In this document: in pieces, positions 24,125 through 49,692 of the stretch
How positions within the stretch are numbered: the stretch's first letter is position 1
How the letters are laid out: each line of letters begins with the position of its first letter
DNA from: Gammaproteobacteria bacterium
GTDB taxonomy: Bacteria; Pseudomonadota; Gammaproteobacteria; UBA4575
NCBI GenBank assembly: GCA_965222615.1
Contig: CBDCUI010000009.1
Span: forward strand, 96,001 to 160,000
Direction: 5' to 3'
Length of the DNA: 64,000 bases
The notes under the pieces: model-generated
Database searches by the model: none
Seen by the model: the letters and a program-made list of their open reading frames with translations, nothing else
Told to the model about the DNA's origin: nothing
Position numbers and translations under genes: made by a program

Positions 24125-25339
24125 TTAGATCTTAACCTGCATAATTTTCCACATAATGAATACGCCAAGTGCGCCCCATAAGGCCATGGCCAATATCAAT
24201 AGCCATCCAAGTACAGTCGTGTATAGCAAACTAAATGTTTCTGGTTGAAAGGTATTTAAAATCCAAGCTAAAAAGAAGGGGATGATTCCAATTATAATTG
24301 CTTGTGCTCGACCTTCTGCAGTCATGGTTAGAATTTTCTCTTTTACGCGTTGCCGTTCGCGAATAATATAAGCAATATTTTGAAAGGCTTCGGGCAAGTT
24401 ACCGCCTGTTTCAGCTAAGGTCGCAGTTGTGTTGACTAACACCTTAGTATCTTCAGTAGGCATACGAACCGCTAACCCAGACATGGCATCCTCAAGAGAT
24501 TTTCCAAGTTGGTACTCTTTTAATAACAATCCGAATTCTTGATTAGTAGGGATAGGCATTTGTTTAGCTACAACTTCAAGAGATTGTTGTAAACTGAGTC
24601 CAGCTTGTAAGGCATTACTCATGATGCCTAAAGTGTCTGCAAGCTGTTTATCAAAACGTTGCATTCTACGTTTGCGCAGATGAGAAATTATACCTCCTGC
24701 TAACTTGAAACCTAATAATCCAAATATTGTGCAGAATAATATGCGCAAGAATAAGTAACCAAGGCCTTCATCTTTTGAGCCATAGAGCGAATCGATATCT
24801 ATGCTTGTTTTACTTGCTTCTGCTGCACGCCGCATCTCAAAGTCTGCATTGGTGAATTCTTTCATAAGTTGGTAGGCGTAAGCCAAGTTAGAGTGTGCTT
24901 GACTATAGTTAGGTTCTAACTTTGTGGCACGTTTAAAATTTGAAATGGCATCTTCAAGATTATTCATTCCGAGATGACTAACGCCCATTTCGTTGTAAAC
25001 TAAAGGTGATTTGCTACGTTGGTAGTTAACTAGCATATTTAATGCTTGCTCATAGAGTCCGTGTTTATTTAATCGCATCGCATCATCAATCACTAGTTGA
25101 TTGATGCCAGAAAATCCACTAGGCAATAGAAAACCAATAATCGCTAAAATAAGTGCACTAATAGGTATAATTGTACTGGCAAGTTTTTTGGGATTCTCGA
25201 TAAAGAGAGCATCTAAATCATCTTCAGCTTTATTGCGTGCAATGGTCCATGATGTGCCTCCACCCCGTGCGGCATAACGTGTTATCAGCCAACTTGCGGC
25301 TAATAATGTTGCTAAAAATACGACAATTAAATAAAGCAT
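24125..25339 (-). CDS. TadB-like (T2SS F family) platform protein with an inserted TPR domain
   Basis: C-terminal QLADTL..MSNALQAGLSL, ETGGNL, MTAEGRAQA. TPRs (YNEMGVSHL, AHSNLAYAY) lie between TM helices. Start MLYLIVV at 25339. Confidence 0.85.
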   Translation of the reverse strand: MLYLIVVFLATLLAASWLITRYAARGGGTSWTIARNKAEDDLDALFIENPKKLASTIIPISALILAIIGFLLPSGFSGINQLVIDDAMRLNKHGLYEQALNMLVNYQRSKSPLVYNEMGVSHLGMNNLEDAISNFKRATKLEPNYSQAHSNLAYAYQLMKEFTNADFEMRRAAEASKTSIDIDSLYGSKDEGLGYLFLRILFCTIFGLLGFKLAGGIISHLRKRRMQRFDKQLADTLGIMSNALQAGLSLQQSLEVVAKQMPIPTNQEFGLLLKEYQLGKSLEDAMSGLAVRMPTEDTKVLVNTTATLAETGGNLPEAFQNIAYIIRERQRVKEKILTMTAEGRAQAIIIGIIPFFLAWILNTFQPETFSLLYTTVLGWLLILAMALWGALGVFIMWKIMQVKI

Positions 25340-25355
25340 GATGTTGTTTTTAATA

Positions 25356-27434
25356 TTACGATGACCAGAAAATTTCTCGTGGTATAGGTACTCCTGAAGT
25401 TTCAAATTTATCAACGCATTTAGGAATATATCCTGTGGATACAAAGCTACCTTGGATTTTCCCATTTTCATCAGGTGGAAGTTGCTCAAAGATAAAAACA
25501 TCTTGCACATCAATTATGCCATCTTCGATACCTGTTACCTCAGATACTTGAAGAATGCGCCGTGAGCCATCTTTAAGTCTTCCAATTTGAATCAATAAAT
25601 TTACAGCACCAACTATTTGTTCACGAATTGCTCGAGAAGGAAGCTCAAGTCCGGTGAACATCACTAATGTCTCTAAACGAGTTAAGGCTTCACTTGTGGA
25701 GTTCGCGTGTATAGTAGTCATGGAGCCATCATGACCCGTATTCATAGCTTGCAACATATCTAAAGCCTCACCAGAACGACATTCTCCAACAACAATACGA
25801 TCTGGTCTCATACGTAATGCATTCTTTACTAAATCACGAATTGTGACTTCACCTTTGCCTTCAATATTTGGCGGACGAGCCTCAAGTGTTACCACATGAG
25901 GTTGAACAAGTCGTAATTCAGCTGAGTCTTCAACGGTAATGATGCGTTGATCTGCAGGAATAAATGAAGATAGTGTGTTCAGCAAAGTGGTTTTACCGCT
26001 ACTAGTTCCTCCAGACACAATGATGTTAAGTTTACTTACAACCGCAGAATTCAAGAAATCTGAAAGTTGTTTGTTTATAGTGCCAAAAGAAATTAAATCA
26101 TCTATTCCAAATACCGTTTTTGAAAATTTTCGTATAGTTAAAGTAGCTCCTTTCAATGCTAGAGGAGGGATGATGGCATTCACTCGGGAGCCGTCGGCGA
26201 GGCGCGCATCGACCATAGGTGAACTTAAATCTATGCGTCGGCCTAGTGGCGCAACAATGCGCTCTATAATACAGCGCAACTGATTTTCAGAAAGAAATTT
26301 TTGTGATGTTATTTCAAGTTTGCCTTTTCGTTCGACATAAATTTGGTCCCAGCGATTTACCATTATTTCTGTTATAGACGGATCATCCAATAGATCTTCT
26401 AAAGGTCCTAACTTTAATACTTCTTGTAATACTTCTACTACAATGCGGTCTCTTATATCGCGTTGTCGAATGTCTGTTTCATGATCGAGTATTTCAACAA
26501 TGCGGCTGCGAACAATATTTTCTAACTCGCGAATCTTCTCAGGATCATCTTGTACTTCAGTATCAAGTCTTTTTAAATCAGGCAAGTGTAAAACTTTTTG
26601 ATGTATGTCTAGTTTCACGCGATCTAAATCTTCTTCGCTAGGCACGCTTGAAGATTTAGATTTTATAGATAGATCATTTTCATGTTGCAGCAGTCCAGAA
26701 GAAGGTTTTTGCAATAGTTGCAAAATTAGTTTTTCTAATTCTTTGCGTATTGGAGATTTAAGGGAGGCCTTTTTGTCGGTTTCCAAGTAAGGGAAAGGGG
26801 TTTGTAGATGTTTAGGGATAACTGCCGATAAATCTACACCCATATGAGTTTTTACCCATTCTGGTGTGATCGACTCATGGCCATTACGCATATTTAATGC
26901 AACATGCATTAAGGTATGAGTAAAGTTTCTTTGTTGTAAAAGCTCAAGATCTTCAGTAGTACTGCGTAAACTAACTGGATCGCTTTCAGTTAATAAAATA
27001 ATACCATCGGCTAAATCCATAATACTTTGTGCTAACGGGCCAAGAGGTAACCCTAAGTCAACAACGATGAACCGATAACGCTGCGAAATCTTTTTGAGTA
27101 ATGTTTTTAATAACTCCGCATTTTCATCTGTATCCGGTGTACTTTGTGATTTACCACTTACTAATCCAAGCAAATTAATTCCTGACAAATGATTAGTAGC
27201 ATAACTCGCCAATACATTTGGGTTAATGGTGCTAGCCATTGGTAACAAACTATCTACATAACGAATTCCATTTACGTTTAATGCAGCAGGCACATCGTTA
27301 GAAATTGGAACGTTACAATCCAGTAACAACACAGCTGACTTAGTTTCTTCATGAAGTCCTGTGGCAAGATTCACAGCAGCAAACGTTTTGCCTGCGCCTC
27401 CCTTAGAACTATATGTGGCATACAAGCGTGCCAT
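25356..27434 (-). CDS. TadZ/CpaE (MinD-like) - TadA/CpaF ATPase fusion
   Basis: N-terminal deviant Walker [10 protein letters not shown]-terminal [32 protein letters not shown]. Start MARL at 27434. Confidence 0.9.
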
Positions 27435-48725: not shown

Positions 48726-48762
48726 TATAGTTAATGAATGTCAATCTATCGATAAGTCAATA

Positions 48763-49692
48763 ATGAAAGAATTTCACTTTCAGAATCAAAGTCAAATAGA
48801 AGCGACTGATAAGAAGATCAGGAATTTGGAAAAATTTATTGATGCAAAACTGCCTGATGATTTCATTCAGTTTTTGAAAGAATATAAAGGAGGTTGGTTA
48901 CCTACTAGAAGGGATTTCGTGGTTTTTTGGGGTAAAAATAATGACCTTCCCTGGCCTAAGCAAGAGGGTAATACAAATAGCTTATATAGTATTGAAGAAC
49001 TTCAGGAATCGTTTAAGGATAATTTAAAGGATCCAGAATATTTCTTTTTGCCGATTAAAGATCTTGAAATTGGGTATAGTGAAAGTGGCCGAGTATTTAT
49101 CAAGCTTCATGAGCCACACAGAGGTAAAGTTTTTTTCTGGCCGTATGAGTTGATTGCAGCGTATGATGACATCCTGGATTATCGTCCCAAGTTTGATTTT
49201 GCAAATCATAATCTCTATCTGCCTGAACTTGCAAGTGTAGTGGCCGACACCTTTGAAATATTTAGCTATGCATTATTAAATAAATATGAAGACTATTCAT
49301 TGACTGCTGGTAAAGATTACCTTGTAAGCTTGCTAGATGGCTCTAAAGAAGACATACAATTCTGGAAAAAGAAAGGAGAGCATGGAGAAATGTTGCGCCA
49401 AATGCTCGAATATTCGTTTTACAACGTAATGTTAAATCATTTCTCCAGGGCCAAAACAGCCTATAAAGCCTTCTGCAAGGCCAAAGACAAATACGAAGAT
49501 GAGTCACTTGATTGCATCTTGCAATGGGAAGGCTGGAAAGCCCATATCCAATTGGCTGAACAAGAACACCAAAATGGGCTCCCTGATTGGCGCTTTCGAT
49601 TTGCCCGTCGAGTCAGTAGCATCGATCCGGATCAAGAACCTCTACCTATTCCAGAAGGCTTTGAATATAGTGAAGTGATCACCTTGTCCTAA
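48763..49692 (+). CDS. SMI1/KNR4 (SUKH) immunity protein
   Basis: IRNLEKFIDAKLPDDFIQFLKEYKGG, GKVFFW, VADTFEIF; directly after the toxin gene. Likely ATG 48763. Confidence 0.82.
   Translation: MKEFHFQNQSQIEATDKKIRNLEKFIDAKLPDDFIQFLKEYKGGWLPTRRDFVVFWGKNNDLPWPKQEGNTNSLYSIEELQESFKDNLKDPEYFFLPIKDLEIGYSESGRVFIKLHEPHRGKVFFWPYELIAAYDDILDYRPKFDFANHNLYLPELASVVADTFEIFSYALLNKYEDYSLTAGKDYLVSLLDGSKEDIQFWKKKGEHGEMLRQMLEYSFYNVMLNHFSRAKTAYKAFCKAKDKYEDESLDCILQWEGWKAHIQLAEQEHQNGLPDWRFRFARRVSSIDPDQEPLPIPEGFEYSEVITLS

What the first reader, a model, noticed from the sequence alone, without database searches (positions are those of the whole stretch)
24125..49692. Candidate Tad-pilus-linked, phosphorylation-gated toxin delivery system (Tad + FHA + kinase + Rhs nuclease + SUKH immunity)
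Seen: one contiguous 25-kb block holds Tad components, three FHA membrane proteins and a Ser/Thr kinase. The kinase, a TadE-like pilin, an Rhs-WHH nuclease and a SUKH gene follow with gaps of only 37-64 bp. No T6SS genes (hcp, vgrG, PAAR, tssBC) are in the window. Known: FHA-containing Tad-like machines (Myxococcus Kil system) mediate contact-dependent killing, and Rhs toxins usually use T6SS or other export routes. Inference: a gammaproteobacterial Tad variant exports or presents an Rhs nuclease to neighbours, switched by kinase/FHA signalling much as PpkA/Fha1 gates T6SS.
Basis: partly seen in the sequence, partly recalled or inferred. Interest (0 to 1): 0.88.

Follow-up and report, generated by a model that had tools for sequence, protein, structure and literature searches.

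The report
Tad pilus machine coupled to Rhs toxin
A rare pilus-building machine rich in phospho-signalling parts sits next to a DNA-cutting Rhs toxin, and in other bacteria the same kind of small pilus subunit is fused to such toxins, so the pilus probably carries the toxin.

Summary
Window 24125-49692 encodes a Tad (type IVc) pilus set, three membrane FHA proteins, a membrane Ser/Thr kinase, a TadE-like minor pilin, a Sec-signal Rhs-WHH nuclease and a SUKH gene.

The Tad genes, second ATPase and three FHA proteins form one conserved system. They are colinear on one strand in the only related locus found, L001. L001 ends before the kinase and Rhs position.

The Tad-Rhs link gains independent support:
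- Among the 88 nearest Rhs relatives, 19 carry an N-terminal TadE-like prepilin domain in the same protein. One of them, P0113, has the window's own TadE type.
- A Moraxella bovis plasmid has an FHA-fused TadA Tad locus followed by TadE, then Rhs.
- None of the 88 relatives lists PAAR or VgrG.
- Four canonical Tad loci without FHA have no Rhs.

Kinase/FHA gating, tip display and contact-dependent killing remain inference. The taxon and any T6SS elsewhere in the genome are unchecked. My searches found no paper on Tad-borne Rhs toxins; the nearest is Bdellovibrio Bd0109.

The parts
24125..25513 (-). TPR + T2SSF inner-membrane platform protein (TadB/C-like). The start is probably near 25339, so there is no real overlap with the next gene.
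   Evidence: Pfam T2SSF 79 bits plus TPR. 38% identical to the L001 counterpart from residue 59 on. Five hydrophobic spans.
25356..27485 (-). TadZ(ParA-like)-TadA/CpaF fusion ATPase ('TadZA'). The probable start is at 27434.
   Evidence: Pfam AAA_31/CbiA at residues 23-175 and T2SSE at 358-632. TadA-family TIGR03819 scores 325 bits, below its cutoff of 373. 50% identical over the full length to the L001 protein. The same fusion is described for Bdellovibrio.
27567..29075 (-). Outer-membrane secretin (CpaC/RcpA type)
   Evidence: Pfam Secretin, T2SS-T3SS_pil_N and BON.
29077..29955 (-). CpaB/RcpC
   Evidence: TIGR03177 at 161 bits, above its cutoff of 71.
30399..31322 (+). TadG-like large minor pilin. 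It has the prepilin G|S site but no Glu at +5.
   Evidence: Pfam Tad PF13400 at 36.8 bits. 35% identical to the L001 protein. Sequence.
31325..31678 (+). 117-aa minor pilin-like protein
   Evidence: No Pfam hit. Prepilin-like N-terminus. 29% identical to the L001 127-aa protein in the same position.
31791..32036 (-). Flp pilin 1
   Evidence: Pfam Flp_Fap at 33.9 bits, above its cutoff of 32.2.
32076..32267 (-). Flp-like pilin 2
   Evidence: Sequence. 47% identical to an L001 Flp-like ORF.
32573..33403 (+). Secreted penta/decapeptide-repeat protein. It has no counterpart in L001, so membership of the system is uncertain.
   Evidence: Pfam Decapeptide and Pentapeptide_4, both below cutoff. NCBIfam pentapeptide families, all below cutoff. 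No L001 match.
33472..34029 (+). Thioredoxin-fold lipoprotein-like protein without CxxC
   Evidence: Pfam Thioredoxin at 30.6 bits. Conserved at 35% identity in the same position in L001. No CxxC in either copy.
34044..35741 (+). Second ATPase, PilB/GspE-like with an MshEN domain
   Evidence: Pfam T2SSE at 399 bits plus MshEN. PilB and GspE equivalog models both score below cutoff. 49% identical to the L001 protein.
35752..36627 (+). Second T2SSF platform protein (the TadB/C partner)
   Evidence: Pfam T2SSF. 46% identical to the L001 protein and 32% to the second platform gene of the Moraxella locus.
36676..38097 (+). FHA membrane protein, 473 aa, 2 hydrophobic spans
   Evidence: Pfam FHA and Yop-YscD_cpl. 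GR...SxxH...NG motif intact. Spans. L001 counterpart at 27% identity.
38087..39001 (+). FHA + TPR membrane protein, 304 aa, 1 hydrophobic span
   Evidence: Pfam FHA. Span. L001 counterpart.
38988..40952 (+). Double-FHA + TPR membrane protein, 654 aa, 1 hydrophobic span
   Evidence: Pfam FHA, two stretches, 107 bits. Only 2 close homologues among 5.8 billion clustered proteins. Span.
41338..43716 (+). Receptor-type Hanks Ser/Thr kinase: N-terminal kinase, one hydrophobic span at residues 427-445, and a C-terminal region of about 345 aa with TPR-like repeats
   Evidence: Pfam Pkinase at 193 bits. VALK, HRDIKPEN and DFG motifs present. Span. A promoter-like site lies at 41122-41150 upstream.
43754..44287 (+). 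TadE-like minor pilin 'TadE177': prepilin G|S site with Glu at +5, and a unique 47-aa Cys-bearing tail
   Evidence: Pfam TadE at 22.0 bits, just under its cutoff of 22.9. Best match of the L001 minor pilin that lies between Flp and TadG. The family has 20 representatives, including the Rhs fusion P0113. Alignment A1. The model shows a long helix plus a small sheet, with the tail disordered.
44352..48725 (+). Rhs polymorphic toxin: Sec-like signal, Cys loop, DUF6531, RHS repeats, core ending in the DPxGL motif, and a C-terminal WHH nuclease
   Evidence: Pfam. Sequence. Relatives. Invariant Cys in alignment A2.
48688..49692 (+). SUKH-1 (SMI1/KNR4) immunity-type protein, probable ATG at 48763
   Evidence: Pfam SMI1_KNR4 at 45 bits, above its cutoff of 25.4.

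Best explanation
The block is one type IVc (Tad) pilus machine of the FHA-rich kind otherwise described in bacterial predators, and the Rhs-WHH/SUKH pair is most likely its cargo.

Shown by the calls:
- The machine comprises a TadZ-TadA fusion ATPase, CpaB, a secretin, two platform proteins, two Flp pilins, three minor pilins, a second PilB-like ATPase, a thioredoxin-fold lipoprotein and three membrane FHA proteins. This is a conserved unit.
- TadE177 is one of its core minor pilins.
- Relatives of this Rhs are often fused to TadE-type prepilin domains.

Inferred:
1. The Rhs crosses the inner membrane by Sec.
2. In the periplasm it is coupled to the minor pilin TadE177. In the fusion proteins a flexible linker replaces this coupling.
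3. Minor pilins prime the filament and sit at its tip, so pilus extension through the secretin carries the Rhs cocoon out and presents it to a neighbouring cell.
4. The C-terminal WHH nuclease, cut free at the Rhs core motif, is the toxic part, and SUKH protects kin.
5. The membrane kinase senses a periplasmic or envelope cue and phosphorylates targets read by the cytoplasmic FHA domains of the three membrane proteins, switching assembly on. This is modelled on the T6SS threonine-phosphorylation pathway.
For: 1. One system. L001 carries Flp, Flp, TadE, TadG, a 127-aa pilin, CpaB, secretin, TadZ-TadA, TPR-T2SSF, Trx, PilB-like ATPase, T2SSF and three FHA genes colinearly on one strand. Each is the best match of its window counterpart.

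2. TadE177 is a core minor pilin. Its L001 relative lies between Flp and TadG (38% over 92 aa). It has the prepilin G|S site with Glu at +5. Its model is a long N-terminal helix plus a small sheet.

3. Fusions. In the search with Rhs residues 1-330, 13 of 88 hits have precomputed Pfam TadE in the same protein as DUF6531 and RHS. With my own profiles the count is 19 of 88: 15 were used to build the profile, 3 are N-truncated fragments, and P0113 was found with an independent profile at E 3.5e-29. P0113 is also hit by TadE177 alone in a 1.84-billion-protein library at E 2.1e-7.

4. At least two independent fusions. Two different TadE subfamilies are fused: about 230 aa in the Thiodiazotropha-like proteins, and the TadE177 type in P0113.

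5. Independent neighbourhood. On Moraxella bovis plasmid NZ_CP087831.1 the order is Flp, minor pilins, CpaB, secretin, FHA-fused TadA, two T2SSF genes, DUF192, TadE, then a Sec-signal Rhs. Two more Rhs genes lie at the same locus. Its TadE matches the N-domains of 17 of the 88 Rhs relatives, all fusions.

6. Specificity. The fusion-type TadE domain has one homologue in 72,556 plasmids, and it is that Moraxella gene (one search gives the reciprocal result).

7. Four of 4 canonical Tad loci without FHA that I opened have no Rhs.

8. None of the 88 Rhs relatives lists PAAR or VgrG. The window's Rhs has a Sec-like signal.

9. There is no plus-strand terminator-like site from 40900 to 52218, and the gaps are 37-64 bp.

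10. Kinase catalytic motifs and FHA pThr-binding motifs are intact.

11. Literature. The toxin of the Kil Tad machine is unknown and a tip-associated toxin has been proposed (PMC8460266 passages; PMC12075869 passages). The RHS-repeat protein Bd0109 lies beside Bdellovibrio Tad genes, and its homologues are said to be associated with Tad pili in other bacteria (PMC3818213 passages).
Against: - No direct evidence of binding, export or killing exists.
- The only related locus of the same subtype, L001, ends 101 bp after the third FHA gene. Conservation of kinase, TadE position and Rhs there is unknown, and in L001 the TadE relative sits with the pilin genes, not beside an Rhs.
- P0056 is a 90%-identical Rhs N-terminus on a 1,098,704-bp contig. 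Neither the TadE177 search nor the FHA654 search returned any protein from a contig of that length. Near-identical Rhs genes can therefore lie away from this TadE.
- Three of 3 more distant plasmid Rhs genes that I opened (Spartinivicinus, Methylobacter, Azospira) have no Tad gene in what could be seen: 14 kb on each side for two, and for Methylobacter 14 kb upstream and about 2.7 kb downstream to the cut at the record end.
- Most type-A fusions come from one lineage of MAGs, so the 19 are few independent events.
- The Moraxella locus has no kinase in the 40 kb seen, and its FHA domain lacks the canonical Arg and SxxH residues.
- No PP2C phosphatase and no prepilin peptidase are in the window.
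- A folded Rhs cocoon may be too large for a Tad secretin. This is my own reasoning and is untested.
- TadE177, Rhs and SUKH have higher GC3 (0.36-0.40) than the FHA and kinase genes (0.24-0.29). This fits a separately acquired cassette.
Confidence: 0.55

Rival explanations
1. The Tad-like machine works as a type II-like secretion system. It pushes the periplasmic Rhs out through the secretin into the medium or onto the cell surface, with TadE177 acting only as a loading adaptor. There is no tip display and no need for cell contact.
For: The Rhs has a Sec signal, so it is periplasmic first. The system has a second PilB/GspE-like ATPase, conserved in L001. Passages of PMC12075869 note that T2SS minor pilins load substrates and that TcpB docks the secreted TcpF.
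Against: In 19 of 88 relatives the Rhs is covalently part of a prepilin. A pilin-fused cargo would stay on the filament unless cleaved. No release signal was identified.
Confidence: 0.17
2. The Rhs-SUKH pair is an independent polymorphic toxin cassette that landed beside the Tad locus. It leaves the cell by Sec plus some unrelated route (general T2SS, vesicles, lysis), and its adjacency to TadE177 is an accident of rearrangement.
For: The window locus is visibly rearranged relative to L001, with several inversions and TadE177 displaced from the other pilin genes. TadE177, Rhs and SUKH have higher GC3 than the neighbouring kinase and FHA genes. tRNA-Cys lies 2.9 kb downstream. Related Sec-type Rhs genes occur with no Tad gene nearby in 3 of 3 plasmids opened. 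P0056 is not on a contig with a TadE177 homologue.
Against: Chance does not explain the TadE::Rhs fusions of two different TadE subfamilies. It also does not explain the same TadE-then-Rhs order in Moraxella, or that the fusion-type TadE domain has as its only plasmid homologue a gene directly upstream of an Rhs.
Confidence: 0.15
3. The Rhs protein is mainly a pilus-associated structural or regulatory factor, as proposed for Bdellovibrio Bd0109 (control of pilus extrusion and retraction, sugar binding), rather than a toxin delivered to neighbours.
For: Passages of PMC3818213 describe Bd0109 as an RHS-repeat protein in the hit locus next to Tad genes. It binds Bd0108 and affects piliation, and its homologues are said to be associated with Tad pili in other bacteria.
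Against: The window's Rhs has a complete core ending in the DPxGL motif, a WHH nuclease domain above the Pfam cutoff and a SUKH gene downstream. Close relatives swap C-terminal domains: P0056 differs, and others carry Tle1-like domains. That is the signature of polymorphic toxins.
Confidence: 0.08
4. A T6SS encoded elsewhere in the genome delivers the Rhs.
For: Many characterised Rhs toxins of Gram-negative bacteria are T6SS cargo (recalled; titles listed). The rest of the genome could not be read.
Against: No PAAR, VgrG, Hcp or chaperone gene is in the window. A Sec-type signal peptide sends the protein to the periplasm, whereas T6SS loads from the cytoplasm. None of the 88 nearest relatives lists PAAR or VgrG.
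Confidence: 0.03

Closest known systems
Myxococcus xanthus Kil system (Tad-like contact-dependent killing apparatus with minor-pilin 'Tips')
   Same: A Tad core (secretin, CpaB, two platform proteins, CpaF-type ATPase, Flp pilin, TadE/F/G-like minor pilins) surrounded by many FHA-domain proteins. It is proposed to be switched by a signalling cascade and to carry or deliver a toxin at the tip (PMC8460266 passages; PMC12075869 sections 8 and 16 and passages).
   Different: - In Kil the ATPase is fused to FHA and is the only ATPase. Here the ATPase is fused to TadZ, the FHA domains are on three separate membrane proteins, and a second PilB-like ATPase is present.
- The Kil toxin is unknown and Kil works with a needleless T3SS. 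Here a defined Rhs-WHH/SUKH pair sits in the locus and no T3SS gene is in the window.
- No sequence comparison with Kil proteins could be made, because none was available to the tools.
Bdellovibrio bacteriovorus Tad machine and the hit locus (Bd0108/Bd0109)
   Same: A TadZ-TadA fusion ATPase, with TPR and FHA neighbours (bioRxiv 10.64898/2026.07.08.737194 passages). The RHS-repeat protein Bd0109 lies directly beside the Tad genes, and its homologues are said to be associated with Tad pili elsewhere (PMC3818213 passages).
   Different: - Bd0109 was interpreted as a regulator of pilus extrusion and retraction, not as a toxin. In the passages read, no toxin domain or immunity gene is described for it.
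- The Bdellovibrio tad genes are dispersed over six loci.
T6SS PAAR-Rhs effectors with the PpkA/Fha1 threonine-phosphorylation switch
   Same: An Rhs cocoon with a C-terminal toxin and downstream immunity, mounted on the tip piece of an extruded filament or spike. A membrane Hanks kinase plus an FHA protein gate assembly. The P. aeruginosa example is mentioned in PMC8460266; the protein names are recalled.
   Different: No PAAR, VgrG or Hcp is present. The Rhs has a Sec signal (periplasmic route) or, in relatives, a prepilin domain. No PP2C phosphatase is in the window.
Minor-pilin-docked or modular-pilin cargo in other type IV filaments (V. cholerae TcpB-TcpF; T2SS pseudopilus tip; S. sanguinis modular pilins PilB/PilC)
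   Same: A tip minor pilin either docks a secreted protein or carries a grafted functional module (as summarised in PMC12075869 passages; PMC8179133 seen in the search listing only).
   Different: Those modules are adhesins or colonisation factors on T4a/T4b/T2SS filaments. Here the module is a ~1,300-1,700-aa Rhs toxin on a Tad (T4c) minor pilin.
Sec-dependent Rhs/WapA-type polymorphic toxins
   Same: An N-terminal signal peptide, YD/RHS repeats, a variable C-terminal toxin and an immunity gene (Zhang et al. 2012, PMC3482391: search listing and abstract start; S. suis WapA title and abstract start).
   Different: WapA acts in monoderms, where Sec export suffices. In a diderm an outer-membrane step is needed, and the Tad secretin and pilus are proposed to provide it here. 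PMC3482391 does not mention TadE or pilin trafficking domains in the 300,000 characters held.

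Membership tests
Tad / type IVc pilus machinery | Flp-type major pilin with the G|xxxxE(Y/F) prepilin motif | tested here: met
   Pfam Flp_Fap at 33.9 bits, above its cutoff of 32.2, for 31791-32036. The motif is visible in both Flp ORFs.
Tad / type IVc pilus machinery | CpaB/RcpC plus CpaC/RcpA secretin | tested here: met
   TIGR03177 at 161 bits, above its cutoff of 71. Pfam Secretin at 80 bits and T2SS-T3SS_pil_N at 53 bits.
Tad / type IVc pilus machinery | TadA/CpaF ATPase with TadZ/CpaE, and two single-domain T2SSF platform proteins | tested here: met
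   T2SSE plus a ParA-like domain in one 709-aa protein, and two T2SSF proteins. The TadA model TIGR03819 scores 325 bits, below its cutoff of 373, so this is a divergent member.
Tad / type IVc pilus machinery | TadE/F/G minor pilins | tested here: met
   PF13400 at 36.8 bits for TadG307. PF07811 at 22.0 bits for TadE177, just under its cutoff of 22.9. The family alignment and model support a pilin-like helix plus sheet.
Tad / type IVc pilus machinery | Dedicated prepilin peptidase (TadV/CpaA) in the locus | tested here: not met
   No Peptidase_A24 hit among the 50 ORFs scanned, and none in L001. It may be encoded elsewhere, as reported for Bdellovibrio.
Kil-type / predator-type FHA-rich Tad system | Over-representation of FHA-domain proteins in the tad cluster | tested here: met
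   Three FHA proteins carrying four FHA domains. They are conserved in L001.
Kil-type / predator-type FHA-rich Tad system | ATPase fused to an N-terminal FHA domain, as the single ATPase (KilF) | tested here: not met
   The window ATPase is fused to TadZ, not FHA, and a second PilB-like ATPase is present. The Moraxella locus does have FHA-TadA.
Kil-type / predator-type FHA-rich Tad system | TadZ-TadA fusion (Bdellovibrio TadZA) | tested here: met
   Met by domain architecture only. The fusion is described in the preprint. No sequence comparison with the Bdellovibrio protein was made.
Kil-type / predator-type FHA-rich Tad system | Predatory host; assembly at prey contact; dependence on a needleless T3SS | not testable with these tools
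   The organism is not identified. No T3SS gene is in the window.
Rhs polymorphic toxin-immunity module | RHS/YD repeats, RHS core ending in the DPxGL motif, variable C-terminal toxin, downstream immunity gene | tested here: met
   RHS_repeat at 152 bits, RHS at 39.8, WHH at 33.7 (above its cutoff of 25.1) and SMI1_KNR4 at 45 (above 25.4). The core motif is seen in the sequence. P0056 shares 90% of the N-terminal region but has a different C-terminus.
T6SS-delivered Rhs effector | PAAR or VgrG/Hcp linkage; cytoplasmic loading (no signal peptide) | tested here: not met
   No such family is in the window. A Sec-like signal is present. None of the 88 relatives lists PAAR or VgrG. The rest of the genome is unchecked.
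Threonine-phosphorylation switch (PpkA/PppA/Fha1 type) | Membrane Hanks kinase with intact catalytic motifs, plus an FHA protein with pThr-binding residues | tested here: met
   VALK, HRDIKPEN and DFG motifs, and a hydrophobic span at residues 427-445. The GR...SxxH...NG motif is intact in FHA473 and in the first domain of FHA654.
Threonine-phosphorylation switch (PpkA/PppA/Fha1 type) | Cognate PP2C phosphatase; demonstrated phosphorylation | tested here: not met
   No PP2C hit in the window. Phosphorylation itself is not testable here.

The most novel reading that the evidence does not exclude
TadE-type minor pilins are a previously unrecognised N-terminal trafficking module for polymorphic toxins. 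FHA-rich Tad pili carry Rhs cocoons at their tips, either fused to a minor pilin or docked on one, and use them as a contact-dependent weapon. This would be a new delivery route for Rhs toxins in diderms. It would also be a concrete candidate answer to what the toxin of Kil-like Tad killing machines is, with a kinase/FHA switch deciding when the pilus fires.
Probability: 0.4. Interest if true: 0.9.

Novelty: new variant of a known kind. Interest (0 to 1): 0.8.

Why it matters
How Rhs toxins that carry only a Sec signal cross the outer membrane of Gram-negative bacteria is unclear. It is also unknown which toxin the Tad-like Kil machine of predatory bacteria uses (PMC8460266; PMC12075869).

Natural fusions of a Tad minor pilin to Rhs toxins, together with two independent TadE-then-Rhs gene pairs at FHA-bearing Tad loci, link the two questions and make both testable with ordinary genetics. 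If confirmed, type IVc pili would join T5SS, T6SS and T7SS as carriers of polymorphic toxins, and the TadE domain could be used to find such toxins in genomes.

Nine literature searches found no paper describing a TadE-Rhs link. The nearest is the 2013 remark that Bd0109 homologues are associated with Tad pili. Subscription-only papers and supplements were not searched.

Tried and rejected
- **Complex prediction.** I ran Rhs residues 39-440 (P0055 numbering) against TadE177 residues 45-177, each with its alignment. The verdict was 'no answer' (score 0.00, partner fold uncertain). It counts neither for nor against binding.
- **Fold search.** The TadE177 model against PDB gave 0 matches at E <= 0.001. 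It is uninformative.
- **tblastn of TadE177 against plasmids.** No match.
- **tblastn of FHA654 against plasmids.** Only generic FHA-domain hits.
- **tblastn of the TadZ-TadA fusion against plasmids.** 0 of 3,230 records cover 80% or more of it, so there is no fused form there. For the Moraxella FHA-TadA, 3 records cover 80% or more: the plasmid itself and two Rhizobium CpaF genes whose alignments begin at query residue 107, beyond the FHA domain.
- **Linking proteins to shared contigs by contig length.** Comparing searches gave no shared lengths. The context of the two close FHA654 homologues and the two close TadE177 homologues therefore stays unknown.
The organisms of P0056, P0113 and others are not known.
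- **Motif checks.** A regex for the MshEN c-di-GMP motif found nothing in the PilB-like ATPase, and no CxxC is in the thioredoxin-fold protein. I make no claim of c-di-GMP control or redox activity.
- **Repeats flanking the kinase-Rhs segment.** Only short two-copy matches appeared, for example 22 nt at 41087 and 51423. They are probably chance, and no integrase is present.
- **A frameshifted fusion gene.** I considered that TadE177 plus Rhs might be one, and rejected it. The Rhs has its own good signal peptide, as do 40 or more of the 88 relatives.

Full report
**Observation**

The minus strand carries four genes:
- a TPR+T2SSF platform protein, 24125-25513 (real start probably near 25339);
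- a 709-aa protein joining a ParA/TadZ-like domain to a TadA/CpaF-type ATPase, 25356-27485;
- a secretin with the pilus N-terminal domain and BON, 27567-29075;
- CpaB, 29077-29955.

Two Flp pilins lie at 31791-32036 and 32076-32267 on the minus strand.

The plus strand carries, in order:
- a TadG-like protein and a 117-aa pilin-like protein, 30399-31678;
- a secreted penta/decapeptide-repeat protein;
- a thioredoxin-fold lipoprotein;
- a PilB/GspE-like ATPase with an MshEN domain, 34044-35741;
- a second T2SSF protein;
- three FHA proteins;
- a Hanks kinase, 41338-43716;
- a TadE-like protein, 43754-44287;
- an Rhs, 44352-48725;
- a SUKH protein.

The gaps of 37, 64 and 37 bp are as stated. 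Each FHA protein has its FHA domain(s) ahead of one or two hydrophobic spans. The kinase has one span at residues 427-445 and a C-terminal region of about 345 residues.

No T6SS family, no prepilin peptidase and no PP2C phosphatase appeared among the 50 ORFs scanned. The flanks are a NiFe-hydrogenase/hyp cluster upstream and an M48 protease, tRNA-Cys and a chemosensory cluster downstream.

**Is it one system?**

The 654-aa double-FHA protein is rare. Among 5.8 billion clustered proteins it has only two close homologues (57% and 52% identity), both on ~10-kb contigs.

I spent the single genome-contig scan on the PilB-like ATPase. It returned one locus, L001, a 16.8-kb contig of an uncultured Desulfovibrionaceae MAG.

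L001 carries, on one strand and in this order: two Flp genes, a TadE-like gene, a TadG-like gene, a 127-aa pilin-like gene, CpaB, a secretin, a TadZ-TadA fusion, TPR-T2SSF, a thioredoxin-fold protein, the PilB-like ATPase, T2SSF and three FHA proteins. Every one is the best BLAST match of its window counterpart, at 22-50% identity.

The Tad genes, the second ATPase, the thioredoxin-fold protein and the three FHA proteins are therefore a conserved unit. The window version is the same set broken up by inversions. L001 ends 101 bp after the third FHA gene, so it says nothing about the kinase or the Rhs.

**The TadE-like gene**

Its best L001 match is the minor pilin lying between Flp and TadG (38% over 92 residues). 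It is therefore a core minor pilin that has moved next to the kinase in the window.

It has a prepilin-type G|S site with Glu at +5. The AlphaFold model (mean pLDDT 77) shows a helix over residues 10-64 followed by three strands, and a disordered tail from about residue 131.

A full HMMER search of 1.84 billion representatives found 20 family members at E <= 0.001. In the alignment nearly all are 110-170 residues long and end at an invariant GDN. The window protein alone has a further 47-residue tail with three cysteines.

**The Rhs**

It has a Sec-like signal. This is followed by a short Cys loop, DUF6531, RHS repeats, a core ending in the DPxGL motif, and a WHH nuclease domain. The SUKH gene follows.

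**Link between TadE and Rhs**

I searched with Rhs residues 1-330, which gave 88 proteins at E <= 1e-10.
- Thirteen carry a precomputed Pfam TadE domain in the same protein as DUF6531 and RHS.
- The sequences show a prepilin-type N-terminal domain of about 230 residues, then a Gly/Asp/Pro-rich linker, then the start of DUF6531.
- With profiles built in a script, 19 of 88 have such a domain. Fifteen were used to build profile A, so their matches are by construction. Three N-truncated fragments were found by profile A. P0113 was found by profile B, which was built only from free-standing TadE177 relatives (E 3.5e-29, covering profile positions 9-128).
- P0113 also appears in the whole-library search with TadE177 alone at E 2.1e-7. 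Pfam places TadE at residues 15-55 and DUF6531 at 289-349 of it.
- By a crude heuristic, 40 of the 88 have Sec-like signals and 29 are unclassified; several of the latter are truncated.
- None of the 88 lists PAAR or VgrG.
- In an alignment of 49 relatives without a TadE domain, the first Cys of the N-terminal loop is invariant and the second nearly so.

Two different TadE subfamilies are thus fused to Rhs, which implies at least two independent fusions.

**An independent neighbourhood**

A tblastn of the second platform protein against 72,556 plasmids hit a Moraxella bovis plasmid. Its annotated locus reads: Flp, four pilin-like or unknown genes, cpaB, secretin, ATPase, two T2SSF genes, DUF192, a TadE family protein, and then, 18 bp on, an RHS protein with a Sec-like signal.

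A second Sec-signal RHS lies 2.8 kb further on. A third, with a Tle1-like phospholipase domain, is divergent from Flp. The ATPase has an N-terminal FHA domain at residues 23-88, as described for KilF.

The Moraxella TadE matches the N-domains of 17 of the 88 Rhs relatives, all of them fusions, at 27-32% over roughly 140-250 residues (those E-values refer to a small database).

Conversely, the N-domain of fusion P0063 has exactly one homologue in the plasmid collection, and it is that Moraxella gene. The Moraxella TadE finds only itself.

**Controls and results against the link**

- Four canonical Tad loci without FHA that I opened (Novosphingobium, Photobacterium, Burkholderia pyrrocinia, Caballeronia) have no Rhs.
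- Three more distant plasmid Rhs genes (Spartinivicinus, Methylobacter, Azospira) have no Tad gene in what could be seen: 14 kb on each side for two, and for Methylobacter 14 kb upstream and about 2.7 kb downstream to the cut at the record end.
- P0056 shares 90% of the Rhs N-terminal region and lies on a 1,098,704-bp contig. No TadE177 or FHA654 relative was returned from a contig of that length. Adjacency is therefore not obligatory.
- GC3 is 0.36-0.40 for TadE177, Rhs, SUKH, TadG and the 117-aa pilin, against 0.24-0.29 for the FHA and kinase genes. Pilin-plus-toxin modules may move separately from the machine.
- No plus-strand terminator-like site lies between 40900 and 52218. A promoter-like site lies upstream of the kinase. 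These are consensus matches only.

**Signalling**

The kinase keeps the VALK, HRDIKPEN and DFG motifs. FHA473 and the first domain of FHA654 keep GR...SxxH...NG; the other two domains are partly degenerate.

Nothing more could be tested. Gating is an inference from the T6SS precedent mentioned in the Kil paper. The Moraxella locus shows no kinase in 40 kb, and its FHA lacks the canonical residues.

**Literature**

- I read passages of PMC8460266. Kil is a Tad-like killing machine rich in FHA proteins, its toxin is unknown, and whether it secretes toxins is open.
- I read the outline, sections 8 and 16, and passages of PMC12075869. TadE/F/G-like minor pilins form interchangeable tips. Tip4 may associate with a toxin. 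TcpB-TcpF and T2SS are cited as minor-pilin-mediated delivery. Rhs is not mentioned (0 occurrences).
- Passages of PMC3818213 place the RHS-repeat protein Bd0109 beside Bdellovibrio Tad genes. They state that its homologues are associated with Tad pili in other bacteria, and read it as a pilus regulator.
- Passages of bioRxiv 10.64898/2026.07.08.737194 describe a TadZ-TadA fusion with FHA and TPR neighbours in Bdellovibrio.
- PMC3482391 has no TadE or pilin term in the 300,000 characters held.
- Searches returned no paper linking TadE or Tad pili to Rhs toxin delivery. Supplements and non-open papers were not seen.

**Conclusion**

The best reading is that the Rhs nuclease is cargo of this FHA-rich Tad machine, coupled through a TadE-type minor pilin. 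It is most likely tip-presented, less likely released in the manner of a T2SS. Assembly is probably switched by the membrane kinase and the FHA proteins.

The comparative evidence for the coupling is good but rests on few independent events: two fusions and two neighbourhoods. Export, contact dependence and gating are untested.

The taxon is not established. T6SS genes elsewhere in the genome, the context of the fusion genes, and the closed metagenome and viral collections remain unchecked. The complex prediction gave no verdict.

Noticed in passing
window 53771-61361: A Pil-Chp-like chemosensory cluster lies 4 kb downstream of the SUKH gene: response regulator, CheW, MCP with HAMP, and a hybrid CheA with Hpt, CheW and receiver domains. 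A stand-alone 294-aa Hanks kinase follows at 60477-61361. It could regulate the pilus. No link was tested.
   Followed up: no
L002 (Moraxella bovis plasmid NZ_CP087831.1, record 56758-97378): A Tad locus with an FHA-fused ATPase is flanked by three full Rhs genes, one of them Tle1-like. It also carries an Rhs fragment, a lytic transglycosylase and several small unknown genes that may be immunity genes. The search for Moraxella bovis + Rhs + plasmid returned a single paper, a general 2026 review, and I found no paper describing this island.
   Followed up: partly
alignment A1 (TadE177 family); window 43754-44287: The family of 20 small minor pilins ends in an invariant Gly-Asp-Asn, usually at the very C-terminus. 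Only the window protein continues, with a 47-residue Cys-bearing tail whose first residues resemble the start of the linker in the Rhs fusion P0113. The meaning of the GDN end is unknown.
   Followed up: partly
window 33472-34029 and L001 9298-9816: A thioredoxin-fold lipoprotein-like protein is conserved in the same position of both loci but has no CxxC in either. It is therefore probably not redox-active. Its role is unknown.
   Followed up: partly
window 34044-35741 and L001 9975-11675: A second, PilB/GspE-like ATPase with an MshEN domain is a conserved part of this Tad subtype. It scores below the PilB and GspE equivalog cutoffs, and a regex for the MshEN c-di-GMP motif found no match. Canonical Tad systems are described as using one bifunctional ATPase (abstract of PMC12019362 in the listing).
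   Followed up: partly
window 52552-52625; 41087-41108 and 51423-51444: tRNA-Cys lies 2.9 kb downstream of SUKH. A 22-nt direct repeat (91% identical) brackets the kinase-TadE-Rhs-SUKH-M48 segment. It is possibly chance, and no integrase was seen.
   Followed up: no
window 1-23700: Upstream lie a NiFe hydrogenase (small and large subunits), a full hyp maturation set (HypA, B, C?, D, E, F), a sigma-54 activator, HycI protease, OmpW and PsiE. This is ordinary metabolism that marks the left border of the block.
   Followed up: no
window 32573-33403: A secreted protein is made almost entirely of a 5-residue acidic/lysine repeat (penta/decapeptide-repeat hits below cutoff). It sits between the Flp genes and the thioredoxin-fold gene and is absent from L001.
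   Followed up: no
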